This document shows positions 12,579 through 60,763 of a DNA stretch of 64,000 bases, one piece after another (within the stretch, counting starts at the first letter, position 1; the number at the start of each line of letters is the position of its first letter). The position numbers were made by a program, and so were the translations under genes. The stretch is from Naegleria gruberi (taxonomy: Eukaryota). The notes under the pieces were generated by a model. That model did not search any database. It was given only the letters and a program-made list of their open reading frames with translations, and had not been told where the DNA came from. The DNA lies in NCBI GenBank assembly GCA_000004985.1, contig GG738851.1; one strand, written 5' to 3'.

Positions 12579-14045
12579 TTATCGAGAATTGATTTTTTCA
12601 ATCATTTGTATGAGGAAAGTACGATCCTTCAAGAGGTAATTGTACTCGTCTCTTGTAATAAAATTATAGGTCATTAATGCTTCCATGATAATTTCTCTAT
12701 CGTGCTTAAAGTAAGTTCCACATTCAAAGAATGCAGATCCATTAAGTTTCACTGCTTCCAGTACGAATTCTCTGTCCTGTTTCACAATTTCTGGGCATTC
12801 CAATATAGCAAGAGTATTGTGTTTGAAATATGCCAAAATGACATCTCTGTCCTGCTTTAACTCGTCAGCAGCATATTCAGCAACTCTTGGATTAATATCG
12901 ATTGCCTCCAAAATAAACTCTTTTTCTTTGATCAAATCTGTTGAATAGGTTATAGCTCTGGGATTGATTTTGATAGCTTTCTTGATGATTTCAACATCTG
13001 ATTTTAAACTTGGAAGAGCAGCATAACCCAGAGCATACCCATTAGAGGAAACTGCCAAGTAAACCAAATCTCTATCTCTCCTTAAACTTTCGTGAGCATA
13101 TTTGAAAGCGCATCCCTCTTGAGTAATAGCTGCTGTCACAATTTCCACATCCTGTTTGAGTGATTCGTCAGCATCCTTTAGTGCATCTCCACATTGTTTT
13201 ACTGCCTCTAATACTATCTCTTTGTCCTTTCTAAATTGATGAGGAACTCTACCAAGCACTTTTCCATTTCTTTTAACGGCTTGAAGAGCAAATTCTCTGT
13301 CGTTCTGTATTTCTGGACTTGCCAGTAGAAATCCTGCAACATAATTAGGTCCAATTGATTCCAAGAGTATTTCCCTATCTTGTTTAACATATTTTGCGGC
13401 AAATTGAATAGAAGTTCCATCAAGTTTGACAGCATTTAACAAAATTTCTCTATCTTTTTTCATATTTTCTGGAATGGTCATTATTGTAATAATTGGGTTC
13501 TTTTTGACAGCCTCAAAAACTACCTCTCTATCATTTTTCAATTCCTTGCTGCAATGTGAAAAAGCACTCATCGAATTTCTGATAGCTTTCAACACTAATT
13601 CTCTATCCGACCTAAGATCTTCATTTGCAAACTCCAAGGCATCTCCACATCCATTCTCAATAGCCAATCGTACCAATTCTTGATCGTTTCGCAACTCGTT
13701 TACCATCAGTTCAAAAGCTCTCCCATTCACTCTCAAAGCCTTCATCACAAATTCTCGATTTTTCTTCAATTCATTACTTGCATCATAAATTCTACAAAAA
13801 TCCAATCGGATAGCCTTCAGCATAATCTCTTCATTGTTTCTCATACACTCAGAGATGAATAAATTATCCAACTTCATCCTCTCCAATGCCAGTCCATACA
13901 TGATCGGATCAAATTCGAATAGTTGGGCAATTTCGGAAAAGAAGGGAATTGCCTTGAGAGCCTTTCTTTCCAGGTCATATTTTTCTCGTAAAATTCGTGA
14001 TGAACAGTTTGTATCTAAAAGCAAAATTGTGCAATGTGTTGTCAT
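12579..14045 (-). CDS. DUF4116-like tandem-repeat protein (paralog of the repeat region in 2819..5467)
   Basis: 488-aa ORF from the ATG at 14045. It is built almost entirely of the same ~37-aa repeat (KNDREVVFEAVKKNP.., KQDREILLESI.., RKDKEIVLEAVKQCGDAL..). Confidence 0.6.
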   Translation of the reverse strand: MTTHCTILLLDTNCSSRILREKYDLERKALKAIPFFSEIAQLFEFDPIMYGLALERMKLDNLFISECMRNNEEIMLKAIRLDFCRIYDASNELKKNREFVMKALRVNGRAFELMVNELRNDQELVRLAIENGCGDALEFANEDLRSDRELVLKAIRNSMSAFSHCSKELKNDREVVFEAVKKNPIITIMTIPENMKKDREILLNAVKLDGTSIQFAAKYVKQDREILLESIGPNYVAGFLLASPEIQNDREFALQAVKRNGKVLGRVPHQFRKDKEIVLEAVKQCGDALKDADESLKQDVEIVTAAITQEGCAFKYAHESLRRDRDLVYLAVSSNGYALGYAALPSLKSDVEIIKKAIKINPRAITYSTDLIKEKEFILEAIDINPRVAEYAADELKQDRDVILAYFKHNTLAILECPEIVKQDREFVLEAVKLNGSAFFECGTYFKHDREIIMEALMTYNFITRDEYNYLLKDRTFLIQMIEKINSR

Positions 14046-14142
14046 TTTTTTTGTAAAGTTTTTAACAAAGAAGTTCTTGTTTCAATGTTAGTTCCTCAAT
14101 TTAGTTCTTATACGTATTCATATCTTTTTAAGATGATCGTAA

Positions 14143-14231
14143 GGCGGCTTAGCACAGTGGCAGTGCATCAGTCTTGTAGGCAGAAATGCTGAGATAACTG
14201 AGGGTCGAGGGTTCAATTCCCTCAGTCGCCT
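14143..14231 (+). tRNA. tRNA-Thr(UGU) with a 17-nt intron
   Basis: Cloverleaf read by hand: acceptor GGCGGCT/AGTCGCC (one G-U), D-arm GCAC-AGTGGCA-GTGC, anticodon stem TCAGT/ACTGA, loop CTTGTA|intron GGCAGAAATGCTGAGAT|A, T-arm GAGGG-TTCAATT-CCCTC, discriminator T. A T4 run (CCTTTTGTC) follows as a Pol III terminator. Anticodon TGT. Confidence 0.7.
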
Positions 14232-14629
14232 TTTGTCATTTTCATATTTTTTTACATTCTGTTTACTAGTATGGCAATCAGTAACCAACATATTCTTTAT
14301 TATCATAATAACTTCGGCTGATCATTTTCAAGCCTTCCTTGGTTGTATCCAGACAAGGCTTTCATAAAACTACCAAAAAAAATACATCATCACTATCTGT
14401 GGTTGAAAACACACTCATTGTAGTAGGCTTTTTGATTGTTTCGCAAACATTTCAAAGCCTTTTTTTGCTAATAGTAGTATTGTGTGATCACCATCATCAT
14501 TGTCTGCTCTGATTGTATAAACAACAAAAAGAACAATAACATCACAACGGAGGAATTTTTGATAGTACATATATAAATATTTAATATTTAATTATTATTA
14601 TTTAATAATCGAGAGAGAATATATTCAAA

Positions 14630-16170: not shown

Positions 16171-16689
16171 TTAACCAGTTCTCAAGATGATGTGAACTCC
16201 AGAGTCAGTTGAAACAATATCACTCAATTCTCCAATCTTTAAACGGAATGAAGCATCTTCGAATGGTTTTTGCATTTGACCACGTCCAAAGAAGCCAAGA
16301 TCACCTCCTCTCTTTGCACTACTACAATCACTATGGACGGAGGCTAATTCTTGGAATTTTTCAGCCATATCTTCAGCATTGAAAATATCCTCTCTCAATC
16401 CTTCCAATATTTCCGTAGCATCCTTTTTCGATCGTGTAATATTCTTTTCCTTCCATGATGATGGATTCCTAGATTGATTATGTTTAATCAACAAGTGGCT
16501 AACCTTGACTTGCTCACCATCATCATTATTATTATTAGTATTATTATTATTGACGAGTGGTTTGGCTGATTTTGTTGGTTTTTCCCATTGTGTTTCGTTG
16601 GTAAATTTGTTGATGTAGTAGAAAACGCCTGGTCTGCTTGAGGATTCTTTAACTCTCCAGCCCTCAGGTACAGAAGGAAGATTAGACAT
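16171..16689 (-). CDS. Pin1/Ess1-type peptidyl-prolyl cis-trans isomerase (WW domain + parvulin rotamase)
   Basis: 172 aa. WW domain [31 protein letters not shown], then an Asn-rich linker, then the parvulin domain ([18 protein letters not shown]..., [37 protein letters not shown]). Confidence 0.85.
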
Positions 16690-27161: not shown

Positions 27162-27242
27162 GCAGGGGTTCCCGAGTGGTCAAAGGGGGTAGACTCAAGT
27201 TCTACTGCGCAAGCTTCGTGGGTTCAAATCCCACCTTCTGCA
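27162..27242 (+). tRNA. tRNA-Leu(CAA), class II with long variable arm, no intron
   Basis: Acceptor GCAGGGG/CTTCTGC (two G-U), D-loop GAGTGGTCAAA, anticodon stem GTAGA/TCTAC, loop CTCAAGT, long variable arm, T-arm GTGGG-TTCAAAT-CCCAC, discriminator A. A T4 run (GTTTTGTC) follows. Confidence 0.7.
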
Positions 27243-27776: not shown

Positions 27777-27827
27777 GTTAACTAGATTTCTGATAGAGTT
27801 GAACAGTGAATGATTAAGAAAGTAATT
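27777..27827 (+). promoter_or_regulatory. Conserved 51-bp element immediately upstream of 5S copy 1 (shared with copy 3)
   Basis: GTTAACTAGATTTCTGATAGAGTTGAACAGTGAATGATTAAGAAAGTAATT matches 52652..52702 (reverse complement) with only a few mismatches. Flanks beyond this are unrelated, and copy 2 lacks it. Confidence 0.4.
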
Positions 27828-32586: not shown

Positions 32587-33328
32587 TTTTTGTTTTTTGA
32601 TTGTGTTTGAGAAGTGAAACATGTTTCAACAGTATTTAAATGTTTGAAAAGAATAGTTTGATTAGTATATTGATTTTTATGATTTTCCATAAAGAGAGTA
32701 GCCACAGATTTTGGACATTGTACATTTGGTCTTTGTTAATCGGTGCGGATAATTGAACAAGAACAGAATGAAAGAACTTCAATGGTTGGATTGTGCTCAA
32801 AGATGTGGAATATCTTGGAATGAAAAAAGTTCCAATATTTAAAGAACGAAAGGACTCTGTAAACTGTTGGTGGACTTTTTGAATTAATCTGATACATCGT
32901 ACTTTTTTTATTCTTGTGCTAGTAGTTTCAAGTTGTCCAATGAAGAGTGGGAATCCTCTCTTTAACTTTCGTATATTTTGAAAATGAGATAAACAAGAGG
33001 TGCTTACCACTCTATACCAAGTTATTGTTAGATGAATTTGCACTCGAGTCAAATTTTTGACACTATTGCCAATAATTGAGTTTTGATTTTTTCACCTTAG
33101 GAGTAATGATATCTTAGCTACCTCTCATTTAATTTTAAAGATTTCATCTCTAAAAACCACAGAGAAAATAATAAAAGATTGGACTCTTTCATTTTTTTTT
33201 ACAAAAAACAAGGTAATATACAAGTTATGAGATAGGTTTTGGATATAATAGTATATATTTCTTTGCAAAGAAATTCAATAAACCTTACCAAGTATGTGAG
33301 AACACAAATTAAGGAACAAAGATAAAAA

Positions 33329-33446
33329 GACTACAGCACCACAGGTTCCCAAGTTGTCTCCAACCTCAGTACTGATGTGGCTCGACGATGCTTAACTTCT
33401 CAAATCGGACGGGATGAGGTGCATTCATCGTGATATGGCCATAGCC
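33329..33446 (-). rRNA. 5S rRNA gene, copy 2 (inverted relative to copy 1)
   Basis: Reverse complement matches copy 1 along the full 118 nt apart from GGCTATGG (versus GGCTACGG) and GCTGTAGTC (versus GCAGTAGTC). It is immediately followed on its own strand by TTTTTATC, a Pol III terminator. Confidence 0.85.
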
Positions 33447-35985: not shown

Positions 35986-36069
35986 TCCGATGAGACGGAA
36001 TCGAACCGCCGACCACAGGATAACAGTTTCAGCTACAGTCCCATGCTCTACCAGCTGAGCTATCATCGG
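35986..36069 (-). tRNA. tRNA-Tyr(GUA) with an 11-nt intron
   Basis: Reverse complement reads CCGATGA-TA-GCTC-AGCTGGTA-GAGC-A-TGGGA-CTGTAG|CTGAAACTGTT|A-TCCTG-TGGTC-GGCGG-TTCGATT-CCGTC-TCATCGG-A. The acceptor stem is perfect, the anticodon is GTA, and the intron sits at the canonical 37/38 position. A T4 run follows on the gene strand. Confidence 0.8.
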
Positions 36070-49074: not shown

Positions 49075-52000
49075 TCAATTTATACTCAAATTCATCAAGA
49101 CAATTACAATTACTATCCAATTCAGATGCACTTTTTTAGAGCTATTAATCGTCAAGTTTCCCAAGTGTGAGGACTTAATTGGTGAAGGTATTGGCTTGTT
49201 GACAGGGTAACTGGAATGTGTTGGAGATGGCGTTGGCACATTGGTTGAGTTGTTGGCTGTGCTATTTGAAATTGGTTGAGGAGAAGATATTGGGTTTAGC
49301 TGTTCCACAATATTCCACTTGAATGGAATGGATATTAATTGTGAAATTCCATTCAATCCAACACCTTTCATTACCTTTTCCATTGGAATGCCCAATCTCA
49401 AAACTGAACAATTGGTTGTTGAATTGTGAACCAAGACAGGAAAGGTAATATTGTCAAATACCATATTTGCTTCTAATCCAGTGCAATTCACACTCGATAA
49501 TGGAATATCTTCCCTCAGCACTCTTCTAGTATCAATCTCAATACTCACATTACTATTTCCAGTTAAGGAAAGACTAAAGAATGAAGTGAGAAGTAGAGTT
49601 TGGGGCCATGTTGAATATCTCTCAACTATAACACTTGGTGTCGATTCAGAAACCACTGGTCCATCAACGTCTACATTTTCCACGTAAATTCTAACTCCAT
49701 TATCTGGTTCCCATCCATTTTCGTTTAGTTTCTTAATGAGAGGAATGTACTTTTTAAAGAGCTCTCTGTGTGGGTTATACAACAATGGATTATCCCAATA
49801 TCTTGAATTCATGGCATCTGCAGAGAAGAATGATGGATAAATGGCATAGAATGCACAATGTCTGAAATATGTTTCCACAAATTCCAAATTAATCATTGAG
49901 AATTTCACATTAAGGATAGTACTATATGGTTTCTTATAGGCCAAAGTTCGTATAAAACTCAACTTGGCTTCAGAATAAGGTGCATACTTAGCATTATTAT
50001 AATTAATCCAAACTACTTCTGTTCCCAAATTGTCAATCATGTTAAATCCGAAAAAGTATTCAGAAAGAACTCCATTACTCATTCCCAATCCACCATGTTC
50101 ATGCAAGAATTTGGTGATCATATCTACATAATCTATGGAAGAGAACCATTCAACCATTCCTACTCTAGAGTTGTAATATGTGAAGCACAGATGTGATTGA
50201 TTGAGGACTGACAAGTGATCTTGACTGAAATCCAATTCGTAGCCATTACTACCCCATGAATCAAAGAATTCTCCACTCAAATTATGAAACTTATGTTGAG
50301 GATTGAGGTAGATATTCCTTGCATCCTCATTCCATTCAGATTCTTCCTTACTCAGATAATTCAATGGAATTGGTGGCTTGGCTCTAATTCCTGGCTGTGA
50401 GTTTACAATGAAGACAGCACAAGGTTTTGTACACCACGGATAGTCAACATCCTGATAATTGTAAAACCCATTCTTGTTCTTAATTCCACTCACTAGCGCT
50501 GTCTGACACTGAACTCTATCGTATTCAATGAGTGCTGAATTATTTCCACAATCAATTGTTGCCTGAATTACTTGCGTGTAATTGGAAGGATCTGTTTGAG
50601 GTGAAAATCTTTGAAGATGAATATAAGCAGATGAAGATTCTGTCAAATATCTGAAGGTTCTAATATTGTGTTGCGCTCCAAATGGAATATCTCTATCTGA
50701 ATCTCCAATTTGATGAACACCAATTCCAAAATCTTCTATCTTTTCAATTTGTGTTAAATCACTGAAAGCTACCCATAATCCTTGTTGTGAATTTGGAATT
50801 CTTACTTTAAAGTAATCTGGGAATATCAAGGAGTAATCATCAATGGCTGATCTGAAAGGATAAGCCAATGGTTTTCCAAATGAATCCTCAGTTTTTGACA
50901 ATTTAAATAAACTCAACTGAACAGTTGCCTTATTAGGCGATAGAGTTTGAAGAGCACTTAACCCAATGTCAAATGCCACATATAATAATCTAGTGCCAGG
51001 ATTGAATGCCAATCTGAATATTCTTGGCTTGTCTGCTGGCACTCCAATTCCTATTCCAACATTTGAAGAGTTAACCATTCGAGTAGCCAAAGCTGCTAAA
51101 GGATACAAACCAATAAGACCATTATTGGATCCAAGATTTCCAAAGGTTGTCAAAGAGGAAAATTCAGAGCTTGTTTCTTTTACAGATCTTGACATTCTAA
51201 TAAAATCTCCCCATAACCAATTCATGGAAAAATCAGAGATTGGAATGCCAATATAAACAGTCAAAGCTCTTTCTGATTGTTGTGAATCAATATTCTCAAT
51301 AATACACTCAATATCAATGGAAAGATTTGTTGCCCTGTATGTGGTTTTTGTTGATAACATCAGTTCACTATTTCTTGAATTCACCTCAAGTGTTGACGAA
51401 TCTGAATTATTCAAAACTGAACCAGTCATTAAAATGAAAGAAGCATTATTTGATTGCTGACTATTGAAATCTTTCACAAACACTCCACCAACATAGAAAT
51501 CCGAAAGTGGTGACAATTCAGTCCCATTAATACTTGTTCCAATAATACTTCCATATTCAGAATCGAATGAAAGAGCCAATCCATTCCCACTCTCAATCTT
51601 TCTAATCCGTTTGCTTAAATCTATTGGTGGTAACGATTCTGGAACTCTTGCCACAGTGAAAGATTTATCAAATTTAGTAACCAAATTAGTCTTGAGCTCA
51701 CCAACAAAGATATCATCAAAATAGACAGTTCCAGTATGACCCCACCTAAATATACAATAAATAGTTAAGAATAGAATGGGTTTCTCTGGAAATATCACAC
51801 CATACTTATATTCCCAATCATGACTTCCAACAGAGAAGTGAACTTGCTGACCCCACAATGATTTCCAATCCGTATAGGTCACATCAATATAGAAACTGTA
51901 ACCATCATCCCCCACACCTGTAACATTCACTGCCTTAGACCAAGCAGAAAAGAACATGGCCTTTGGTTCTGTGTGAAATAAATTCATATACTGATAGGCA

Positions 52001-52347
52001 ACCATTCCTTCCATGGTTTCATTCTTGAACATTTTAAGGGCATATCCTTGAGTTTCATTCAACCGATCATTCAATACCCTCTCATAATCCCAATACTCTT
52101 GATGGTTCTCACTCATGGATCCCCAATTATCGGCATGACCAGTTGGAATACCTTGTTGGATGGATGGATTTTTCACAAGGTTCGGGCTGAGCCATCTCTG
52201 ATAGACATCCTCTGCCCGATTGAGGATTTGATAAGCTTGGACATGAGGAAAACAAATTATTTCATGATTATTTAATATTAATAGTGAAATAAGAGGAAGA
52301 ATGATGAAGATGATGAAATATTTAGGGAATGGAGAGGATTTGATCAT
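49075..52347 (-). CDS. Large (1090 aa) heavily N-glycosylation-site-rich secreted/membrane protein, unknown family
   Basis: ATG at 52347. N-terminal hydrophobic signal/anchor (FIIFIILPLISLLILN), a very long ectodomain with dozens of N-x-S/T sites, a P/S/T-rich stalk, and a C-terminal hydrophobic stretch (LNWIVIVIVLMNL). Single uninterrupted ORF. Confidence 0.5.
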   Translation of the reverse strand: MIKSSPFPKYFIIFIILPLISLLILNNHEIICFPHVQAYQILNRAEDVYQRWLSPNLVKNPSIQQGIPTGHADNWGSMSENHQEYWDYERVLNDRLNETQGYALKMFKNETMEGMVAYQYMNLFHTEPKAMFFSAWSKAVNVTGVGDDGYSFYIDVTYTDWKSLWGQQVHFSVGSHDWEYKYGVIFPEKPILFLTIYCIFRWGHTGTVYFDDIFVGELKTNLVTKFDKSFTVARVPESLPPIDLSKRIRKIESGNGLALSFDSEYGSIIGTSINGTELSPLSDFYVGGVFVKDFNSQQSNNASFILMTGSVLNNSDSSTLEVNSRNSELMLSTKTTYRATNLSIDIECIIENIDSQQSERALTVYIGIPISDFSMNWLWGDFIRMSRSVKETSSEFSSLTTFGNLGSNNGLIGLYPLAALATRMVNSSNVGIGIGVPADKPRIFRLAFNPGTRLLYVAFDIGLSALQTLSPNKATVQLSLFKLSKTEDSFGKPLAYPFRSAIDDYSLIFPDYFKVRIPNSQQGLWVAFSDLTQIEKIEDFGIGVHQIGDSDRDIPFGAQHNIRTFRYLTESSSAYIHLQRFSPQTDPSNYTQVIQATIDCGNNSALIEYDRVQCQTALVSGIKNKNGFYNYQDVDYPWCTKPCAVFIVNSQPGIRAKPPIPLNYLSKEESEWNEDARNIYLNPQHKFHNLSGEFFDSWGSNGYELDFSQDHLSVLNQSHLCFTYYNSRVGMVEWFSSIDYVDMITKFLHEHGGLGMSNGVLSEYFFGFNMIDNLGTEVVWINYNNAKYAPYSEAKLSFIRTLAYKKPYSTILNVKFSMINLEFVETYFRHCAFYAIYPSFFSADAMNSRYWDNPLLYNPHRELFKKYIPLIKKLNENGWEPDNGVRIYVENVDVDGPVVSESTPSVIVERYSTWPQTLLLTSFFSLSLTGNSNVSIEIDTRRVLREDIPLSSVNCTGLEANMVFDNITFPVLVHNSTTNCSVLRLGIPMEKVMKGVGLNGISQLISIPFKWNIVEQLNPISSPQPISNSTANNSTNVPTPSPTHSSYPVNKPIPSPIKSSHLGNLTINSSKKVHLNWIVIVIVLMNLSIN

Positions 52348-52533
52348 CGGAGGAAGAAGAATTGAAGTTGGAGAGGTGTCCTCTATAAATCTTTTTTTAC
52401 TGTTGTTTTTGAATTGTTATGATTGTTCAATTAAGGAAATTTACATTCCCGCCAAATATTAAATTCTCATTGTAAAGATCTTGAATCGAACAAAAAATTT
52501 GAGTTAAAGTGATATTTGTTGAAGAAAACAAAA

Positions 52534-52651
52534 GACTACAGCACCACAGGTTCCCAAGTTGTCTCCAACCTCAGTACTGATGTGGCTCGACGATGCTTAA
52601 CTTCTCAAATCGGACGGGATGAGGTGCATTCATCGTGATATGGCCGTAGCC
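52534..52651 (-). rRNA. 5S rRNA gene, copy 3
   Basis: Identical in length (118 nt) and nearly identical in sequence to copy 2. It has GGCTACGG at the 5' end like copy 1, and a Pol III terminator TTTTGTTTTC directly after the 3' end. It shares the 51-bp upstream element with copy 1. Confidence 0.85.
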
Positions 52652-52702
52652 ATTCACTTTCTTAATCATTCACTCTTCAACTCTATCAGAAATCTAGTTA
52701 AC
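52652..52702 (-). promoter_or_regulatory. Conserved 51-bp 5S upstream element (copy 3)
   Basis: Reverse complement GTTAACTAGATTTCTGATAGAGTTGAAGAGTGAATGATTAAGAAAGTGAAT matches 27777..27827. Confidence 0.4.
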
Positions 52703-52742
52703 AATTTACAAAACACAAACTTTCTAATAATCTACTATTTAT

Positions 52743-53288
52743 TTAAACAAAGAATGAAACAATAATCATCAATGCAATCAAAATGCTTGATCCAATCATC
52801 TTTTCAGCACCAGAACAAACATATTTAGTTCCAGAAAGACAAACTCCATTATATGCAGAATAATCAACAGTTTGTTTAACACTTGAACAGGCACTATCAT
52901 AATAAACAGTCAAATATCTACAGGCAGTACTCTTATAAGAACCAGCACCTGGAATAACAACACAAGTATCCAATGGGAAGATTTGTGAGACAACTAAATT
53001 GGAAGTAGCACAAGTAGTGTCAGAATAAATTGATAATTGTAAAGTATTCTTGGAACCAATGGAAGGAACAGTTGAAGTACATTGACTAGTGGTATAGAGT
53101 GAGGTGGTGTTACTACCAGTACAGGTTGGGTTGGAAGTACAGTTAGAAGTTGGAGTGTAGAGATCCAACATTGGGAGAGAGCTTGAACACTTGGAGTCAG
53201 TGAAGAGGGAAGATCTGATGTATTGACCACTGACTGATGTGATGGCAATGAGAGCAAAGAGGACAATGGAGAGAATGATAGTTTTCAT
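52743..53288 (-). CDS. Small secreted Cys-rich protein with GPI-anchor-like C-terminus (ponticulin-like), paralog A
   Basis: 181 aa. Signal peptide ending ..SVSGQY, eight Cys conserved with paralog B, S/T-rich, and a C-terminal hydrophobic tail (ILIALMIIVSFFV) preceded by small residues (SGAE). Confidence 0.55.
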   Translation of the reverse strand: MKTIILSIVLFALIAITSVSGQYIRSSLFTDSKCSSSLPMLDLYTPTSNCTSNPTCTGSNTTSLYTTSQCTSTVPSIGSKNTLQLSIYSDTTCATSNLVVSQIFPLDTCVVIPGAGSYKSTACRYLTVYYDSACSSVKQTVDYSAYNGVCLSGTKYVCSGAEKMIGSSILIALMIIVSFFV

Positions 53289-53582
53289 TTTCTTGAGATT
53301 GTTTGTTTTTTTGAGTGAAGAAATGAGTTGAAAGTTTTGTTGAATTTATTCGAAAGTGCAAGTTCATTAATTTCATGTGGCTTCACTAATGTGACAAGTG
53401 GTTACAACGAGTGTAAGATGCAATTATTGAAATAAAATGTAAAAGGAAACTTTTCCAACTCAATTCCTACATGAAATGTGACAACTCGAAGAAATTTAGG
53501 TTTCGAATATTTCCTTCCTTACATTTCGTTCAGTGAAAAAGGTTGTAAATTCATTCAATACACAAATTACAATATCTCATCC

Positions 53583-54108
53583 AATTCTTTACAAAATTAA
53601 AGGTAACCCACAGCTGGCAATTTCTAGCTGGTTTGTTTGCTTGTGTGGTTAACGTTCACTAGATTCAAAATTTACCCATCAGTTGAGGAAAAAATTTATT
53701 TCCCACTTTCCAGCTTGCTTCCAACCCACAAAAATAAAACAAGAATTTTTAACAACAACAAGCTAAATTTTTATTTGTCTTATATTCGTGTTGGTTGAAA
53801 GCCAACTCTAACCCATAGGTTAAAGTACTGTAATTCTAACACCAATCCATATTCTCCAAAACCTACATGAAACCATCCTAAAGAGGTGGTTTTAGTATGT
53901 TAGTACTACTATGTTTTGGATTTTGATGTTGTGGACTAATTTTCGAGTTATTTCCCCAAGTTTCAAAGGCCAAATTTCATTCGCACCTGTCATCGCACTG
54001 GTTTGACGGATTCTTGAATCTTCTCACACAGATTCTCATGCACCAATACAATTGAAAAAACACCAGCGTAAAAACCGAGCTGTGGGCAGTTTTAATTTTG
54101 TAAAGAAT
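53583..54108. repeat. About 526-bp element bounded by ~35-bp imperfect terminal inverted repeats (MITE-like or a regulatory palindrome)
   Basis: 53583..53617 AATTCTTTACAAAATTAAAGGTAACCCACAGCTGG matches the reverse complement of 54070..54108 (AATTCTTTACAAAATTAAAACTGCCCACAGCTCGG): 19/19, then 9/9 after a 4-nt mismatch block. It lies between the tandem paralogs, in the 5' flank of paralog A. Confidence 0.35.
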
Positions 54109-54344
54109 TACATACCACCATTCACAATTATTTTGAGCAACTGAAATACGTACCACGTAATCCATCTCCATTTACACTTCACTTGTTACTAACAACATGT
54201 CAACACCATTCAAAAACCTCAAAAAGGAAAGCAATATTCACCCTTTAATATAACTACATATCAAACAACAACAACTACAGTAAAGCATAGGGAAAAGTTG
54301 TGAAAAAACATGTTCATATAATATATTTAAGGCATTTAATTTAT

Positions 54345-54881
54345 TTAAAAAACAATGGAAAGCAAAGCAGCAACCATCATTACAACAGTGGTAAGACCAA
54401 TCTTTTGAGCATTGTTACACAAGTACTTGGTACCCAAATTACAGACACCATTGAAAGCAGCATAATCAACAGTGTTCTTAACAGTCTTACAGTCAGCATC
54501 AGAGTAGAGAGTCATAGTCTTACATCCAGTACTCTTCATGCTTGAACCATCAGTAGATGAAATACATGTGTCAATTGGCAAGATTTGTGAGATGGAGATG
54601 GCTCCACAGGTGTTATCAGCATAAATGTTGACTTGCAAAGTGTTCTTACCACCAACTGGGACAGCAGAAGCACATGCAAGAGAGGTGTAAACAGATGTGG
54701 AATTGACACAAGTCACTGGAACAATCGAGCTGGCGCAATTGTCAGTTTTAACATACATATCCAAGTAAGCTGGAGAAGCAGTACATGTTGAATCCTTGTA
54801 CAAGGTGGTTCTCATGTATTGAGCATTGACGCTAGCAAGAGCAGCAATGAGTAAGGCAGCAATAATGAAGATGGATTTCAT
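54345..54881 (-). CDS. Small secreted Cys-rich GPI-anchor-like protein (ponticulin-like), paralog B
   Basis: 178 aa. The signal ends ..ASVNAQY. Alignable to paralog A throughout (QYMRTTLYKDSTCTA versus QYIRSSLFTDSKCSS; GKNTLQVNIYADNTCG versus SKNTLQLSIYSDTTCA; TVDYAAFNGVCNLGTKYLC versus TVDYSAYNGVCLSGTKYVC). Confidence 0.55.
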   Translation of the reverse strand: MKSIFIIAALLIAALASVNAQYMRTTLYKDSTCTASPAYLDMYVKTDNCASSIVPVTCVNSTSVYTSLACASAVPVGGKNTLQVNIYADNTCGAISISQILPIDTCISSTDGSSMKSTGCKTMTLYSDADCKTVKNTVDYAAFNGVCNLGTKYLCNNAQKIGLTTVVMMVAALLSIVF

Positions 54882-55128
54882 ATTGTTGAGTGTTTTGTTT
54901 TTTTAAGGCATCTTTAATATTCACAGACTTTGTGCATGTTTATTGCCTTAAAAAAACAAAACACGATTCTGCACTACGGCTCCTTACTGCGGCTGTTGAG
55001 CAGTTGATGAACCTTCAAACACTACAAGCAAATGAAGCTTTTGGTCGTAACAAATTAGTCTTGCCTACCCTAGTACAGGTCGCGTTTAGTGTTTTTTAGA
55101 ACAGATAATTTACAGAAAGTATAATAAT

Positions 55129-57280
55129 TTATCGATGTTTGAGTTTGTGTTTCAATTGTCTCTTGTCTGAGAGTGCCTTCTTCCACTTCTTTTCGTTTTG
55201 ACCCATGGTATTCTTGTGTCTGACGTTTCTGGACATCTTCAACATCATGTATGGCTTGTTCTTCTTCTTTTGCTTTTGAGTTTCTCCAGGTTGTTCCCAC
55301 TTTCTTCTGTTGAATTTCTTCTTTTCTGGTTCAAATTCATTGTCTGAATCGTCACCCTTAGAAATGTCACCAATATCATCTTCGTCAACATTTTCATTGC
55401 TAAAGATTGGGGTTTCTCTCTTTCTCTTCTTACCCATAAGCTTTTCCATTTCCTTGCTCTTTTTGAGTTTCTTAATCAACTCAAAGTCTTCTTGTGTAAG
55501 AATTCTGGTTTGATCAATTCTTGGGCCCTTTGGTTCCTCTGAAGCTTGTTCACCATCTTCAATGACTTCTTCTTCTTCACTGTCCAATTCGAAAACATCT
55601 TCCAAGTTCAACAATTCACCACCTTCCTCGTTATCAGATCCCTCAGAATCATCAGAGTCATCCATAGCAATATTGACATCATCTTCACCGTCGCTTGGAA
55701 CATCAATCCATTCACCTTCTTCATCAGAATCTTCACCATCAACAGCCATGAGATCCTTTTCAGATTCCTTTCTCTTATTGTATTCTTCCAATAATTCAAT
55801 GCCATCAACACCTTCAGCAACTCTTTGAGTACCAAATTCTGGAATGACTGCTTCAGGATCGTGATCTTTACCTCTGTCTTTCTTGTTCAACATCTTTGGA
55901 GAAAGTTCTCTGAAGAGTGTTATAATACCTCTAGCAGCATGGAAAACTTGTTTATCCTTATGTTTAGAATATTGAGATAAATCTCTCAAGAGGGTCTTGG
56001 TCATAACTCTTGGTTGTCTTGAACAAATAACTCTAATTGTATTCAAACCAGCTGCAATAACTTCTGGTTTGGAATGGTCATTAGCAAAATTGTTAGCAAT
56101 AGTCATGACGACTGGATGAATAACATCAGGAGGAACAAAATCGTGAACTGATTGGGCAGTAATGGCAAGAATCTTGGTAACATCTAAAAAATTGAAATAT
56201 ATCAGAAATTAAAATGTCACAAAACTTACTGGCTTGGGCAGGGAGTAAATATTTTTGAATGAAAGGATAAAAATTGAGAAGAACTAATTGATTTGAGGAA
56301 ACACATCTTGAAATAACGTCCAACATTAAAATTCTTACTTCAAATTTGTCATTTGAACTCTTCAATTTAGCAAAGAGTTTTTCAGAGAAACCTTGTGGAT
56401 CATTCAACATGTTGAGAACGTTCAATGATTCAATTTCCATACCCTTTTCCTTATGTTTATCCTTCTTTTTAAGTTGTTTGAGAGCTTTCTTAAATTTGTT
56501 TTCCTTTTTCTTTGTCTTTTTAGAGTGAATATTGTTAACTTTAAACTTTAAATCTCTAATCAAGTGACCAAGATCTCTATCATCTGATTTTTGTTTTGTT
56601 CCGTCTTCATCTTCTTCAGCTTCATCAACTAATTCACCCAAGAAGAATTTAAGTGCAATAACAACAAGAGCAGTATCTTCAGCAAAACATGATTGGGAAA
56701 TAACATTGACACATCTATCATCATTCCAAATACCTCTTCTATAAAGTGTAATTAAAAGTTGCAAACTCTTCTTTGCAGCAATACGGAATGAATCTTTCAA
56801 CATGGAAAAGACAAAGTTTTGCAATGATCTATTTACATTAGGATTCTTCTTCTTCATATTGATTTTAGTAATATCGGAGAGAATGTGTTTATAAACCATA
56901 CTTCTAAGAGTCTTATCATGTACTCGGAAAAGTTTAAATAATACTGGTATTAAAGTTTTAGAGTCAAGAATGTCGTTATTACGGAAAGCAATGAGTGTGA
57001 TAGCAAGTTGTCTTCTCAATTTTGGTTCTAATTCTAATTGTTTTGTTTCCAACAAATCCAAAATCATTGGTGCTGCAGTTTTGGTTTCTGCTTTATAAAC
57101 TTTGCAAGCAACACTCAAAAATTGCAACAATTTGACAAAATATTTAGCATCATCGGCTGGTCTCAATTTTGCAACTTCGGTTTGATTTTCCAAGTGTTTC
57201 AATTGAAGGAGGAAATCATCTTTATAAGCCTTTGGATCTTTAAAAACTTGTTCTTGAAGATGAAGGAGATCGATACTCAT
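55129..57280 (-). CDS. SDA1: SDA1 (ribosome-biogenesis / nucleolar protein). Model: complement(join(55129..56183, 56230..57280)).
   Basis: The N-terminus MSIDLLHLQEQVFKDPKAYKDDFLLQLKHLEN matches the SDA1 start (LQNLIKRDPE.YKEEFLQQ). A 46-nt intron (A|GTAAGT...TTTTTTAG|) joins the two listed ORFs in phase 1 to give 701 aa. The C-terminal half has the characteristic D/E-rich acidic block and K-rich tail. Confidence 0.7.
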
Positions 57281-57504
57281 TTTTTTTGAAGGTCAAAAAT
57301 AAAAATATTTTTGTTGAACAAGACAAAATTCGGATCGAGAGAATATTCATTATTTGATGAGAAATATTTGAATATTTCAAATATAATGATGAGAAGAGCT
57401 TTTTCACCATCGTTGGACCAGATTACATGATAAATTAAATTTGTTCGGAATAATGACTATTTGATGAAGAATTTAATATCAAATTTCTAATAAGAAAAAA
57501 AATA

Positions 57505-59135
57505 ATGAAAAAGTTGTTGCTTTCTCATCGAATTCAGCTTCTTCTTCGGTATTATCTAGAAGAGGAGTTCAACATATAGAAAGTAGTATTAGGAAGGGAA
57601 GTGGAGCATTAGGATTTTCTCTATTGAATTCTTCAAAGAATAGAGATTTTCATGGGAACTCTTATAAGCGAGGATACAATTTTAAAGGAACAGAATTGGT
57701 CAGAGATTTCATTCATGATTCATTATATAATCCAGAATATGGATACTTCAACAAGAGTCATGAATTAATTATCAGTCATCCATTGTTTGAAGGAAAGGAA
57801 AATGTGGGAGAAATTTCATCATCCGAAGCCTTTGAAGAATTACTTTTAAATAATACTCTTCCAAGAGAAGAACAAACAATTTTACCATTTACTGAATTAG
57901 AAGATCATTTGGATTACTTGGAAAATTTATCTGAATTGTATCAAAGAGGTCCACAAAGTTGGGGTACTCCAATCGAAATATTTCAACCTTACTATGGTAT
58001 TGCAGTGGCAGAACACATTTTGAAAACACAATATGGATCATCTATTAATCAATCTTTGGATAGACCTTTGAAGATTTATGAAATGGGTGGCGGTATGGGC
58101 ACTTGTTGCAGAAATATTTTGGATTATTTGGAGACTGATTATCCAGAAATTTACAAGAATACAGAATATCACATTATTGAAATTTCTTCACAATTACACG
58201 AGCAACAGAAAATCAGATGTGCTCATCATGTAACCAATGGAAAACTCAAATTACATCACGACTCGTTTATGGATTGGAAACAAGTGGAGCAGGATGAATG
58301 CCACGTTATTGCTATGGAAGTTTTGGACAATTGTGCTCACGATAAGATTTCAATTGATGCTGATGGAAATGTTAAGGAATGTCATGTATTTTTCGATAAG
58401 GGTAAAAATTACTATGAGGAAGTTTACCTTGATTGTAGAGACGAGTTAATTATTAGATATTTGACGCTGGCTGGGGTTATTGAGACTTCTAACACAAAAA
58501 CCAAATTTTCTCCTAATTTTACCTACACCTCTCTGCAGGATAAGACTAAAGGAGCATTTACCAAACTGATTCAATCATTCTCTTCCAAATCCACAAATGG
58601 GATGAGATCACTCCTCATGAACTCCATTGGAGGAGACCATGTATTTTACATCCCAACAGTACAATTACAAATTATTGAAAAATTACAACAAAATTTCCCA
58701 AAACACCACTTTATTTGTGCCGATTTTGACTACTTGGGAACAGATGAATCTGGAGAAAGCAACAGACCACTCGTACAAAAGAAATTCAAATTCATGAAAA
58801 CCTCTAATTTATTAAGAAAGATCAGAGAGAAACGAACACTCTTTCTAAGTCCTGAAGATATCTCATCAGAGGACAATTTCTCCATAGAGTCACATGCATT
58901 CAGATCGTATCTAGTTCCAAAAGGAGAGTGTGATATTTTCTTTGCCACCGACTTCAATATCATGCAACAAGTTTACAGCAAAGTTTGTCAAGATCAAGGT
59001 GGCCTAAGAGGATCACTCGTCATGAAATCATCTCAATTCATGAAAGAATATGCAGAGTATGAAAATTTTACTACAAAATCAGGATACAATCCATTATTGA
59101 AAGATTACACAAACTTTTCATTCTTCCTCAGTTAA
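57505..59135 (+). CDS. NDUFAF7: NDUFAF7 / MidA (DUF185 arginine methyltransferase, complex-I assembly factor). Tentative model: join(57505..57548, 57587..59135).
   Basis: The long ORF (listed start is a TTG) carries the MidA hallmarks FIHDSLYNPEYGYFN, the SAM-fold YEMGGGMGT..., and a long C-terminal DUF185 domain. The only upstream ATG (57505, MKKLLLSHRIQLLLR, presequence-like) is in another frame. A 38-nt intron (CG|GTATTA...AAGTAG|, 57549..57586) or a 32-nt alternative (..ATATAG|) joins it in frame. Which acceptor is used is unresolved. Confidence 0.65.
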
Positions 59136-59221: not shown

Positions 59222-60763
59222 ATGTACACCAAGCACATTGTGGCCTTGTTTTGTTTCGTCTTGTTGTGTGATGTTGTTGCTGTCAATGCAGCAGCAGACA
59301 TTCTCTCACAAATGATGGAACAAATTCAACAAGTAAAATCATCATCGTGCAGGTACACTGCCACAGGTGTTGATTTCTCACAATGTAACGGTTATTCTAA
59401 AGGCATACTTCCTCCCATGTATGCAATGTTAGGATATAATCCAACCTCGACCGATCTATTCACCCTTCCTATCACCGAACCGAGTACAAACATTATTGTT
59501 GAGGGATATTTTAACCCTCAGGATGTTCTGCCGAATGTATGCGAATTCGAAAGTGGCTATTCTACACTCTTCCAAAATTCAACACCTAATAACTCTGAAT
59601 TTACACCAAATTTATTTTGGAATTTCAATACTAATGACTATTCAAATATATTTGGAAATGTTCTTGACATTCAACATTCGTGTTCACTTCAAAGTGAAAC
59701 CTTTGTTGCGTACAAAACTAATTCAGCAAATCTTGATTCTAATTTCAAGAAAATTATTTCACTACTTCCTATGGAGTATAATGAACAAGTTTATTCTTTA
59801 TTTTACAATAGTTATGGACCTTTAGTTTCAAAAGGTAAATATGGAGGAAGTAGAATTGAGACAATTGTAAAATCTTCAAATTTAGGTGTGAATAGAGATA
59901 GTTCAAAAGTGAAAATTGTTGGTGGTTATTCTGAAAAGGATAAACAGAGTTGGTCTTATTCTGTCTATAGGAATCCAACTATGGTTGATGTTGAGTTGAT
60001 TAGGATGAGTGATTTTATTAGAAATTTGAATTTGGCCTCTAGTAAGGTGATCAAAAACATGATTAGATTTGAAAAATCATTGTTAACAAGTATTTCTAGT
60101 AGAGATGTATACCAATCGATCTTGGAGCAAAACCGTCCTTGTAAGAATATTATACTTTCTAATATGTATGAAATCTATATACACTATGCATGCTATGTTC
60201 CAAACGTGTACACAAATGACTTAATTTCAAGAACCTATGGTTATCAAACCAAATCAGAAAACATTTTCAAATATGGGGTTATGGGAAAGGTTTGGAATTT
60301 AGATTTAAAATGTGGTCCTTCAGAAACAATGAATTTTGACAGAAATCATAAATCAAAATTCTTTTCATTGCGTTCCAATAATGAGCCACCTCAATACCCT
60401 TTCACTAGACCAGTATATTTTGATTTGAATGAATTTAATAGCCAAAACAAAAATGACTACCGACATTTCAGAGAGGCAGCACCCTATTGGAAATCAGATA
60501 TTGGAAGTAGGACACCTTTAGGAATTTTGGGTTACTGCTCTCCAGTCAAGTTAAAAGGTATGAAGCCATTGAATTTATACAAGTATAGCATCAATGAAGG
60601 GTTTGGACATTATTTGAGTATTTATTCACCTTCAACACCACCTTTAGAATACAATATTGGTTATACATATCCTCCAGATACTGGTATTGTACAGAAACAA
60701 ATCGAATCAGGAGATCCTGATTTGATATATTTCAAAGTTTGTGTGGAATTGGAAACAGATTAA
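59222..60763 (+). CDS. Secreted protein with MACPF-like signature, paralog 1
   Basis: 513 aa. Signal MYTKHIVALFCFVLLCDVVAVNA. YNSYGPLVSKGKYGGS resembles the MACPF motif (Y/F)G(T)H(F/Y)-x6-GG. Homologous to the convergent gene 60760..62124 (e.g. GILGYCSPVKLKGMKPLN versus IGYCSSKQYAGMIELN). Confidence 0.45.
   Translation: MYTKHIVALFCFVLLCDVVAVNAAADILSQMMEQIQQVKSSSCRYTATGVDFSQCNGYSKGILPPMYAMLGYNPTSTDLFTLPITEPSTNIIVEGYFNPQDVLPNVCEFESGYSTLFQNSTPNNSEFTPNLFWNFNTNDYSNIFGNVLDIQHSCSLQSETFVAYKTNSANLDSNFKKIISLLPMEYNEQVYSLFYNSYGPLVSKGKYGGSRIETIVKSSNLGVNRDSSKVKIVGGYSEKDKQSWSYSVYRNPTMVDVELIRMSDFIRNLNLASSKVIKNMIRFEKSLLTSISSRDVYQSILEQNRPCKNIILSNMYEIYIHYACYVPNVYTNDLISRTYGYQTKSENIFKYGVMGKVWNLDLKCGPSETMNFDRNHKSKFFSLRSNNEPPQYPFTRPVYFDLNEFNSQNKNDYRHFREAAPYWKSDIGSRTPLGILGYCSPVKLKGMKPLNLYKYSINEGFGHYLSIYSPSTPPLEYNIGYTYPPDTGIVQKQIESGDPDLIYFKVCVELETD

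What the first reader, a model, noticed from the sequence alone, without database searches (positions are those of the whole stretch)
52743..54881. Tandem pair of ponticulin-like small Cys-rich GPI-type proteins with a 526-bp inverted-repeat element in the intergenic promoter region
The two paralogs are about 45% identical with eight conserved Cys. Their signal peptides end NAQY/SGQY and they have GPI-like tails. Between them, about 300 bp upstream of paralog A, lies a segment bounded by ~35-bp imperfect inverted repeats (53583..53617 versus 54070..54108). This could be a MITE insertion or a cis-regulatory palindrome. 5S copy 3 lies only about 90 bp downstream of paralog A's stop.
Basis: seen in the sequence. 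Interest (0 to 1): 0.5.

Follow-up and report, generated by a model that had tools for sequence, protein, structure and literature searches.

The report
Transposon insertion between two Naegleria surface-protein genes
Two neighbouring Naegleria gruberi genes for small cysteine-rich, probably lipid-anchored surface proteins are separated by a 519-bp miniature DNA transposon that is cleanly absent from a 97%-identical relative, so it is a recent mobile-element insertion rather than a regulatory palindrome, and the proteins are not ponticulins.

Summary
The window is Naegleria gruberi, not a dictyostelid. ORFs 52743-53288(-) and 54345-54881(-) are the annotated genes NAEGRDRAFT_63563 and NAEGRDRAFT_63564. 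They are 45% identical, and all ten Cys align, not eight. Both have signal peptides and GPI-type tails. A 5S rRNA gene lies 91 bp past gene A's stop.

The inverted repeat is real: a 19-nt perfect core that extends to about 55 nt. An ENA metagenome contig about 97% identical across this locus lacks exactly window 53587-54105. It carries a single AATT where the window has AATT on both sides. That is the signature of a non-autonomous DNA transposon (MITE-like): terminal inverted repeats, a target-site duplication and an empty site. The cis-regulatory palindrome reading is rejected.

"Ponticulin-like" fails. A profile comparison with true ponticulin gives 12% probability and covers only the signal peptide. 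The family was found only in Heterolobosea and forms tandem arrays, four genes in N. fowleri. It matches Pfam PF11912 (DUF3430, the Dictyostelium BadA/B/C bacteriolytic family) just below threshold and carries that family's Y/FxxxxC motifs.

This is ordinary biology, now well resolved. Interest is low to moderate.

The parts
52533..52651 (-). 5S rRNA gene (copy 3 of three in the window), 91 bp downstream of gene A's stop and on the same strand
   Evidence: Rfam RF00001, 105.4 bits, full length 1-120. About 53 bp upstream of it, inside gene A's 3' flank, is shared with 5S copy 1.
52743..53288 (-). Paralog A, NAEGRDRAFT_63563 (XP_002681190.1). It is 181 aa with a signal peptide, a 10-Cys beta-rich domain containing six [YF]xxxxC motifs, and a GPI-type tail with candidate omega site S159-G-A.
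   Evidence: ORF. Exact match to the N. gruberi predicted protein. Motif count. Tail features.
53583..53586 (.). Left copy of the AATT target-site duplication
   Evidence: L001 has a single AATT at this junction.
53587..54105 (.). 519-bp non-autonomous DNA-transposon-like insert (MITE-like), 35.6% GC, with no ORF over 64 aa
   Evidence: It is absent from the ~97%-identical contig L001. L001 973-1941 matches window 52625-53586, and L001 1938-2779 matches window 54106-54949. Junction alignment. ORFs. Composition. No Rfam family matches.
53587..53638 (+). Left terminal inverted repeat: CTTTACAAAATTAAA (perfect), then the imperfect stretch GGTAACCCACAGCTGG...
   Evidence: Identity to the other arm is 15/15 at the terminus, then 10/15 in each of the next three 15-column bins.
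54056..54105 (-). Right terminal inverted repeat: reverse complement CTTTACAAAATTAAA, then ACTGCCCACAGCTCGG...
54106..54109 (.). Right copy of the AATT target-site duplication
54345..54881 (-). Paralog B, NAEGRDRAFT_63564 (XP_002681191.1). It is 178 aa with a signal peptide, a 10-Cys domain containing four YxxxxC motifs, and a GPI-type tail with candidate omega site N156-N-A.
   Evidence: The AlphaFold2 model is all-beta apart from the two terminal hydrophobic helices, with mean pLDDT 78.7.
54890..54964 (.). Perfect 21-nt inverted repeat (33-nt loop) starting 8 bp upstream of gene B's ATG. It is a separate feature, not part of the transposon.
   Evidence: L001 has an imperfect version plus about 100 extra bp here.

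Best explanation
**The genes.** Two same-strand paralogous genes of Naegleria gruberi encode secreted proteins of about 180 aa, rich in disulfides and beta-strands. They are most likely attached to the cell surface by a GPI anchor. They belong to a small, fast-changing family seen so far only in Heterolobosea, which tends to sit in tandem arrays. The family looks like a remote relative of the dictyostelid DUF3430/CfaA_B_C (BadA/B/C) family, not of ponticulin.

**The insert.** The intergenic space between them holds a 519-bp non-autonomous cut-and-paste DNA transposon (MITE-like). It lies 294-298 bp upstream of gene A's ATG and about 235 bp downstream of gene B's stop.

**Mechanism (inferred).** A transposase encoded elsewhere in the genome recognises the terminal inverted repeats. 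These have 15 perfect terminal bases and about 50 bp of decaying similarity. The transposase made a staggered cut at an AATT target, and repair duplicated the AATT on both sides. A closely related Naegleria lineage still has the unoccupied site.

**Shown:** the terminal inverted repeats, the duplicated AATT, the empty allele, and the lack of coding capacity.

**Inferred:** the transposase partner, the multi-copy status, the direction of the event (insertion rather than precise loss), any effect on gene A's promoter, and GPI anchoring.
For: **Element**
- The perfect 19-nt inverted repeat extends to about 55 nt at 79% identity. Identity is highest at the termini: 15/15, then 10/15 in each of the next three bins. 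This gradient is typical of transposase-bound ends.
- Only 1 of 100 shuffles of the 64-kb window gave such a repeat.
- Contig L001 (ENA ERZ929261) is 96-98% identical over window 52625-57691 but lacks 53587-54105. The junction reads CATCC-AATT-ACATACC, against CATCC-AATT-[element]-AATT-ACATACC in the window.
- With the element removed, the intergenic regions align at 510 of 545 columns.
- The element has no ORF over 64 aa, no Rfam match and no similarity to anything else in the window, so it is not a local duplication.

**Proteins**
- The pair is 45% identical, E 2e-47. Both are annotated N. gruberi genes.
- Relatives were found only in N. gruberi, N. lovaniensis, N. fowleri and Willaertia magna, among 1.84 billion representative proteins.
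- N. fowleri has a four-gene tandem array of the family.
- PF11912 is matched by 5 of 12 family members, best 27.0 bits against a cutoff of 28.6.
- The published DUF3430 hallmarks are a signal peptide, at least 8 conserved Cys and several Y/FxxxxC motifs (PMC7886984). All are present. B has 4 motifs and A has 6, P<=0.001 against shuffles.
Against: - No second copy of the element was found, so "family of repeats" is unproven. The places searched were the window, JGI metagenomes, IMG/VR and the fetched loci. The rest of the N. gruberi genome could not be searched.
- Only one comparator allele exists and there is no outgroup. A precise loss in the L001 lineage cannot be formally excluded.
- AATT is a palindrome continuous with the inverted repeat. 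The true duplication could therefore be 4, 2 (AT) or 0 bp, and the superfamily cannot be assigned.
- AATT with 5'-CT...AG-3' ends does not match the TTAA-specific superfamilies, including Kolobok, which is reported in Naegleria (PMC9587614).
- No transposase was found among the 20 largest ORFs of the window.
- The DUF3430 link is below Pfam's threshold. Window protein B has no hit at all, and A scores only 15.8 bits over its signal peptide.
- GPI anchoring rests on inspection alone.
Confidence: 0.78

Rival explanations
1. The inverted-repeat-bounded segment is ancestral, non-mobile DNA, and L001 lost it. Replication slippage across a hairpin formed by the repeats, between the two AATT direct repeats at the base of the stem, would delete exactly this segment.
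For: - The presence/absence pattern is symmetric, and there is no outgroup.
- Folded as single-stranded DNA, the segment closes its terminal stem (z = -3.99).
- The same 5-kb locus shows two other structural differences between the two lineages, so it is unstable.
Against: - This reading does not explain where a 519-bp segment with terminal-biased inverted repeats came from. The segment resembles nothing nearby.
- Deletion end points that coincide to the base with the outer ends of the inverted repeat are what a transposon predicts.
- Even a precise loss would be most simply explained as transposon excision.
Confidence: 0.08
2. The inverted repeat is a cis-regulatory palindrome, or structured promoter element, that controls paralog A.
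For: It lies about 300 bp upstream of gene A's ATG, in a compact genome.
Against: - The whole segment is missing from a ~97%-identical lineage in which gene A is intact and 97.8% identical in protein.
- The arms are 489 bp apart, which is far for a protein-binding palindrome.
- No similar element lies upstream of paralog B or of the third paralog in L001.
Confidence: 0.03
3. The two proteins are true members of the ponticulin family, that is, actin-binding GPI-anchored membrane proteins as in Dictyostelium.
For: - The overall architecture is shared: a signal peptide cleaved before QY, a small Cys- and Ser/Thr-rich body, and a hydrophobic GPI-type tail (PMC2290967).
Against: - hhalign of the family profile against a ponticulin alignment gives 12% probability over 28 columns, restricted to the signal peptide.
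- BLASTP against ponticulin gives E 0.23 and 1.3.
- The profile HMMER search of 1.84 billion representatives returned hits at E<=1e-3 that carry only Naegleria or Willaertia names where a source name exists. None is a named dictyostelid protein.
- Ponticulin has 6 Cys in about 100 mature residues. These proteins have 10 Cys in about 135 residues.
Confidence: 0.04
4. The C-terminal hydrophobic stretch is a permanent single-pass membrane anchor, or simply a retained segment, and not a cleaved GPI signal.
For: - No trained GPI predictor was run.
- The AlphaFold2 model shows residues 163-177 as a helix.
- Some N. fowleri relatives have longer Ser/Pro-rich stalks before the tail.
Against: - The tail runs to the very last residue, with no cytoplasmic or basic residues after it.
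- It is preceded at the right distance by small residues: S-G-A and N-N-A, and G-S-A or N-G-A-A in relatives.
- This layout is conserved across the family.
Confidence: 0.2

Closest known systems
MITEs / non-autonomous TIR (class II) DNA transposons
   Same: - Short (519 bp) and non-coding.
- Terminal inverted repeats that are best conserved at the very ends.
- A short AT-rich target duplicated on both sides.
- Located in a gene-proximal intergenic region.
- An insertion polymorphism between close lineages.
   Different: - Multi-copy status and an autonomous partner were not shown.
- The duplicated AATT and the 5'-CTTTAC...GTAAAG-3' ends do not fit these canonical signatures, which I give from my own knowledge of the superfamilies: TA (Tc1/mariner), TWA (PIF/Harbinger), TTAA (piggyBac, Kolobok, Sola3) and 8 bp (hAT).
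- The duplication length itself is ambiguous (4, 2 or 0 bp), because AATT is palindromic.
Kolobok DNA transposons (reported in Naegleria; PMC9587614)
   Same: A 4-bp palindromic AT-only target duplication, in a genus where Kolobok is reported.
   Different: Kolobok is TTAA-specific with 5'-RR...YY-3' termini. Here the site is AATT and the termini are 5'-CT...AG-3'.
DUF3430 / Pfam PF11912 CfaA_B_C (Dictyostelium BadA/B/C bacteriolytic proteins; PMC7886984)
   Same: - Signal peptide.
- At least 8 conserved Cys.
- Repeated Y/FxxxxC motifs.
- Predicted all-beta structure.
- A large lineage-specific amoebal gene family.
- Sub-threshold HMM matches that span most of the profile in two family members.
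   Different: - All scores are below the gathering cutoff: best 27.0 against 28.6. Window protein A scores 15.8 and B has no hit.
- The domain is shorter, about 135 aa against a 206-position profile.
- These proteins carry a GPI-type tail. The characterised member BadA was purified from cell extracts, and that paper describes no GPI tail.
- No bacteriolytic activity is known for the Naegleria proteins.
Ponticulin (Dictyostelium ponA)
   Same: A small secreted Cys-containing glycoprotein with an ...AQY mature N-terminus and a C-terminal GPI signal.
   Different: No detectable sequence homology beyond the signal peptide. The Cys number and spacing differ. Actin binding has not been tested.

Membership tests
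MITE / non-autonomous TIR DNA transposon | Terminal inverted repeats at both ends | tested here: met
   The 19-nt perfect core includes the AATT, and 15 nt of it belong to the element proper. Similarity extends to about 55 nt at 79%.
MITE / non-autonomous TIR DNA transposon | Target-site duplication flanking the element, single in an empty site | tested here: met
   AATT lies on both sides in the window, and L001 has a single AATT. The length is formally 4, 2 or 0 bp because AATT is palindromic.
MITE / non-autonomous TIR DNA transposon | Small size and no transposase coding capacity | tested here: met
   The element is 519 bp. The longest fully internal ORF is 53 aa, and the longest overlapping ORF is 64 aa.
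MITE / non-autonomous TIR DNA transposon | Many related copies dispersed in the genome | not testable with these tools
   There is no other copy in the 64-kb window, JGI metagenomes, IMG/VR or the fetched loci.
MITE / non-autonomous TIR DNA transposon | An autonomous element with the same termini that encodes a transposase | not testable with these tools
   None of the 20 largest window ORFs has a transposase domain. The rest of the genome was not searched.
piggyBac / Kolobok / Sola3 (TTAA-specific superfamilies) | TTAA target-site duplication; for Kolobok, 5'-RR...YY-3' termini | tested here: not met
   The duplicated site is AATT and the termini are 5'-CT...AG-3'. The criteria are taken from PMC9587614.
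Ponticulin family | Detectable sequence homology to Dictyostelium ponticulin | tested here: not met
   hhalign gives 12% probability over 28 columns, the signal peptide only. BLASTP gives E 0.23 and 1.3. The ponticulin sequence was verified as P0019, named 'Ponticulin' by UniProt.
Ponticulin family | F-actin binding and nucleation at the plasma membrane | not testable with these tools
   This is a biochemical property (PMC2290967).
DUF3430 / PF11912 CfaA_B_C | Score at or above Pfam's gathering threshold (28.6 bits) | tested here: not met
   Protein A scores 15.8 bits and B has no hit. The best family members score 27.0 and 23.1 bits. Five of 12 members match at E<=0.1.
DUF3430 / PF11912 CfaA_B_C | Signal peptide, at least 8 conserved Cys and several Y/FxxxxC motifs (as defined in PMC7886984) | tested here: met
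   Both proteins have signal peptides and 10 aligned Cys. B has 4 motifs and A has 6, P<=0.001 against shuffles. The family range is 3-6 motifs.
GPI-anchored protein | N-terminal signal peptide plus a C-terminal signal: small omega and omega+2 residues, a short polar spacer, and a hydrophobic tail that ends the protein | tested here: inconclusive
   All features are present by inspection: A has S-G-A/EKMIGS/SILIALMIIVSFFV and B has N-N-A/QKIGLT/TVVMMVAALLSIVF. They are conserved across the family. No trained predictor or experiment was available.
5S rRNA | Full-length match to the Rfam RF00001 covariance model | tested here: met
   105.4 bits against a gathering score of 38, model positions 1-120.

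The most novel reading that the evidence does not exclude
There are two non-exclusive novel readings.

(a) The element belongs to a DNA-transposon lineage that has not been described and that targets AATT. This would differ from the known TTAA-specific superfamilies. Alternatively it is a Spy-like element that inserts in AA|TT with no target-site duplication.

(b) The two genes represent a GPI-anchored branch of the DUF3430/Bad fold in Heterolobosea (Discoba). This would extend a family of amoebal antibacterial effectors from dictyostelids to a very distant amoeboid lineage, as surface-displayed proteins that meet bacterial prey.
Probability: 0.12. Interest if true: 0.55.

Novelty: new member of a known kind. 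Interest (0 to 1): 0.3.

Why it matters
Transposable elements of Naegleria are hardly described. A clean occupied/empty pair with defined ends gives a seed for finding the whole family and its transposase. It also gives a ready strain marker and a natural test of whether an insertion about 300 bp upstream changes expression of a surface-protein gene.

The protein result corrects a tempting mis-annotation (ponticulin). It points instead to a possible distant link with the Dictyostelium Bad/DUF3430 bacteriolytic proteins. That would be of interest for how unrelated amoebae handle bacteria, including the pathogen N. fowleri, which has a four-gene array of the family. None of this overturns current knowledge.

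Tried and rejected
**More copies of the element: none found**
- blastn of the whole intergenic region against the window found only the two arms hitting each other.
- The 19-mer with up to 3 mismatches found only the two arms.
- The repeat pattern found nothing in JGI metagenomes.
- It found nothing in IMG/VR.
- The 15-mer was absent from the fetched loci.
- An exact look-up of the internal 53-aa ORF found no record.
- A protein-guided scan of metagenome contigs confirmed no relatives.

**More alleles of the locus: only L001**
- Look-ups of A, B, P0002 and the 325-aa SDA1 ORF were not on record.
- The 384-aa SDA1 ORF returned the same contig.

**RNA gene inside the element: rejected.** The Rfam E-value scan gave only noise, and the tRNA scan found none there.

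**SUEL-type lectin: not supported.** This is UniProt's automatic name for two N. fowleri relatives. Pfam gave no Gal_Lectin hit at E<=1.

**Helitron: rejected.** The ends are not 5'-TC...CTRR-3', and the element has long terminal inverted repeats.

**The 15-nt inverted repeat at 16539/17159** is low-complexity ATT repeats, so it is a chance match.

**Literature.** I found nothing on Naegleria MITEs, and nothing on the project of the comparator sample.

**A second word-indexed protein search** with the family alignment added nothing.
Full report
**Source and observation**

Paralog B is 100% identical to a predicted protein of Naegleria gruberi on a 693,645-bp scaffold. Exact look-ups name A as NAEGRDRAFT_63563 (XP_002681190.1) and B as NAEGRDRAFT_63564 (XP_002681191.1). 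The window is therefore heterolobosean, not dictyostelid. It is 30-37% GC.

- **ORFs.** They sit at 52743..53288(-) and 54345..54881(-), 181 and 178 aa.
- **Similarity.** They are 45% identical, E 2e-47.
- **Cysteines.** Each has ten Cys, and all ten align.
- **Signal peptides.** They end SVSG|QY and SVNA|QY.
- **5S rRNA.** A 5S gene lies at 52533..52651(-), 91 bp past gene A's stop.
- **Inverted repeat.** It has a perfect 19-nt core, 53583-53601 against 54091-54109. It extends to 53583-53638 against 54056-54109 at 79% identity.
- **Chance.** One of 100 dinucleotide-preserving shuffles of the whole window produced a perfect 19-nt inverted repeat at 50-2000 bp spacing.

**The element**

The decisive evidence came from a look-up of a cluster-mate of a third paralog. 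It returned a 5,661-bp ENA metagenome contig, L001 (sample ERZ929261). The contig carries the same gene order: a 181-aa gene, a 178-aa gene, then SDA1.

L001 aligns to window 52625-57691 at 96-98% identity, with one clean gap. L001 973-1941 matches window 52625-53586, and L001 1938-2779 matches window 54106-54949. The junction alignment shows the following:

- L001: ...TCATCC-AATT-ACATACC...
- Window: ...TCATCC-AATT-[CTTTACAAAATTAAAGG ... 519 bp ... CAGTTTTAATTTTGTAAAG]-AATT-ACATACC...

So the window has terminal inverted repeats, a duplicated 4-bp target and a matching empty site.

- The arms are identical for the terminal 15 nt. Similarity then decays: 10/15 in each of the next three bins, then 7/15. 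This is the gradient expected for transposase-bound ends.
- With the element removed, the two intergenic regions align at 510 of 545 columns.
- The element has no ORF over 64 aa, no Rfam or tRNA match and no similarity to anything else in the window.
- A 4-bp repeat and a 19-nt inverted repeat are both far shorter than the 127-nt k-mer in the contig's name (k127). Assembly collapse is therefore not a plausible cause of the gap. This last point is my inference.

I conclude that this is a non-autonomous cut-and-paste DNA transposon (MITE-like) that is polymorphic between close Naegleria lineages. Both flanking genes are intact in the empty allele: A is 97.8% identical in protein and B is 96.1%. 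A required cis-regulatory palindrome is therefore rejected.

**Limits on the element**

- **Copy number.** I could not test it. No further copy exists in the window, JGI metagenomes, IMG/VR or the fetched loci.
- **Duplication length.** AATT is palindromic and continuous with the repeat, so the duplication may be 4, 2 (AT) or 0 bp.
- **Superfamily.** AATT with 5'-CT...AG-3' ends does not fit the TTAA-specific superfamilies. That includes Kolobok, which is reported in Naegleria with 5'-RR...YY-3' ends (PMC9587614). The superfamily stays open.
- **Polarity.** There is no outgroup. A precise loss in the L001 lineage, by excision or hairpin-stimulated slippage, cannot be formally excluded. It would still leave the origin of such a segment unexplained.
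- **Partner.** No transposase domain occurs among the 20 largest ORFs of the window.

**The proteins**

A profile of A and B searched against 1.84 billion representative proteins gave 12 hits at E<=1e-3. Every hit that carries a name is from N. gruberi, N. lovaniensis, N. fowleri or Willaertia magna. The rest are unnamed ENA metagenome proteins, and one of those is repeat junk.

The 12-sequence alignment shows a conserved plan:

- a signal peptide;
- a domain of about 135 aa with 7-8 invariant Cys;
- small residues followed by an uncharged hydrophobic tail that ends the protein.

In N. fowleri, four family genes lie head-to-tail in an unrelated neighbourhood (L003 10001-14165). The three genes that were not used to build the profile score E 1e-28 to 1e-41. 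Tandem arrays are thus a family habit.

*Ponticulin test.* I recovered the authentic Dictyostelium ponticulin and four orthologues. hhalign against the Naegleria family gives 12% probability over 28 columns, covering the signal peptide and AQY only. BLASTP gives E 0.23 and 1.3. Membership is not met. Only the general layout is shared: a signal peptide, a small Cys- and Ser-rich body and a GPI-type tail (PMC2290967).

*DUF3430 lead.* The only recurrent Pfam signal is PF11912 CfaA_B_C, formerly DUF3430.

- Five of 12 family members match at E<=0.1. The best scores are 27.0 and 23.1 bits against a cutoff of 28.6, and together those two matches span profile positions 1-194.
- Window protein A scores 15.8 bits over its signal peptide only. 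B has no hit.
- PMC7886984 describes DUF3430 as the family of BadA/B/C, bacteriolytic proteins of D. discoideum. It gives the hallmarks as a signal peptide, at least eight conserved Cys and several Y/FxxxxC motifs. It also notes one member in Bodo saltans. From my own knowledge, Bodo, like Naegleria, belongs to Discoba.
- Protein B has four such motifs (YKDSTC, YTSLAC, YADNTC, YSDADC) and A has six. The family has 3-6, which is strongly enriched over shuffles.

I therefore call the family DUF3430-like. It is a probable remote relative, not a demonstrated member.

*GPI anchoring.* Both tails fit the classical rule by inspection:

- A: omega S159, omega+2 A, spacer EKMIGS, tail SILIALMIIVSFFV.
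- B: omega N156, omega+2 A, spacer QKIGLT, tail TVVMMVAALLSIVF.

No residues follow the tail. No trained predictor was available, so this is an inference.

**How it most likely works**

*Shown:*
- two intact paralogous genes;
- a 519-bp element bounded by terminal inverted repeats;
- a duplicated AATT;
- an empty allele.

*Inferred:*
- A transposase encoded elsewhere mobilised the element into the AATT site, about 295 bp upstream of gene A.
- This roughly doubled the intergenic distance, from 539 to 1056 bp. It may have moved any upstream promoter sequence away from gene A.
- The proteins are exported, disulfide-bonded, GPI-anchored and displayed on the amoeba surface.
- By analogy with Bad proteins they might interact with bacteria, but nothing here tests that.

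**Novelty and score**

Both genes are already annotated as predicted proteins. The element is an unnamed but conventional kind of mobile DNA. The most unusual points are the AATT target and the possible DUF3430 link across eukaryotic supergroups. I rate the finding as a new member of a known kind, interest 0.3.

Noticed in passing
window 54890-54964 (compare L001 2720-2900): A perfect 21-nt inverted repeat (GTGTTTTGTTTTTTTAAGGCA / TGCCTTAAAAAAACAAAACAC, 33-nt loop) starts 8 bp upstream of paralog B's ATG. In L001 the right arm is imperfect, and about 100 bp of extra sequence follows it. This is a second structural difference in the same locus. Its direction and meaning are unknown.
   Followed up: partly
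L001 1-1100 versus window 52348-52745: In L001 a third paralog (P0013, 182 aa) lies tail-to-tail with gene A. It is 82-83% identical to A and 98.9% identical to NAEGRDRAFT_72736, which in strain NEG-M sits on a different 331-kb scaffold. The two are separated by only the first ~27 nt of a 5S gene. The window instead has an intact 5S gene followed by a 1090-aa ORF. This is either a real rearrangement between lineages or a contig problem.
   Followed up: partly
window 27777-27827 and 52652-52704: 5S rRNA copies 1 and 3 share about 53 bp of nearly identical upstream sequence. Copy 2 (33328-33446) does not. For copy 3 this conserved block lies inside the 91 bp between gene A's stop and the 5S start.
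   Followed up: partly
L003 10001-14165 (N. fowleri VFQX01000035.1) and L004: Four family members (184, 225, 194 and 214 aa) lie in a same-strand tandem array with spacers of about 500-600 bp, between TFIIE-alpha and UBA1. This is not syntenic with the N. gruberi pair. UniProt auto-names two of the N. fowleri relatives 'SUEL-type lectin domain-containing'. Pfam does not support that name.
   Followed up: partly
window 52743-53288 and 54345-54881 versus L001: Between the two lineages, codon differences are mostly nonsynonymous in the surface-protein genes. The counts are 2 synonymous and 4 nonsynonymous for A, and 2 and 7 for B. The adjacent SDA1 ORF has 3 and 1. This hints at fast protein evolution, but the numbers are too small for a test.
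   Followed up: partly
window 14142-14232 and 35986-36069: Two tRNA-Thr(TGT) genes are 91 and 84 nt long, which is longer than a standard tRNA and suggests introns. A tRNA-Leu(CAA) lies at 27162-27242, about 600 bp from 5S copy 1.
   Followed up: no
window 49075-52347 (-): A 1090-aa ORF immediately downstream of the 5S gene has an N-terminal hydrophobic stretch, many N-x-S/T sites and no Pfam domain. This exact sequence is not in the protein collection, so the annotated gene model probably differs.
   Followed up: no
window 33-2786, 2972-5467, 12579-14045, 59222-60763: Other gene content of the window:
- a PIF1-like helicase with a C-terminal WWE domain;
- two proteins with many DUF4116 repeats, one of them fused to a protein kinase;
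- an ORF with a MACPF/perforin domain match at 28 bits.
   Followed up: no
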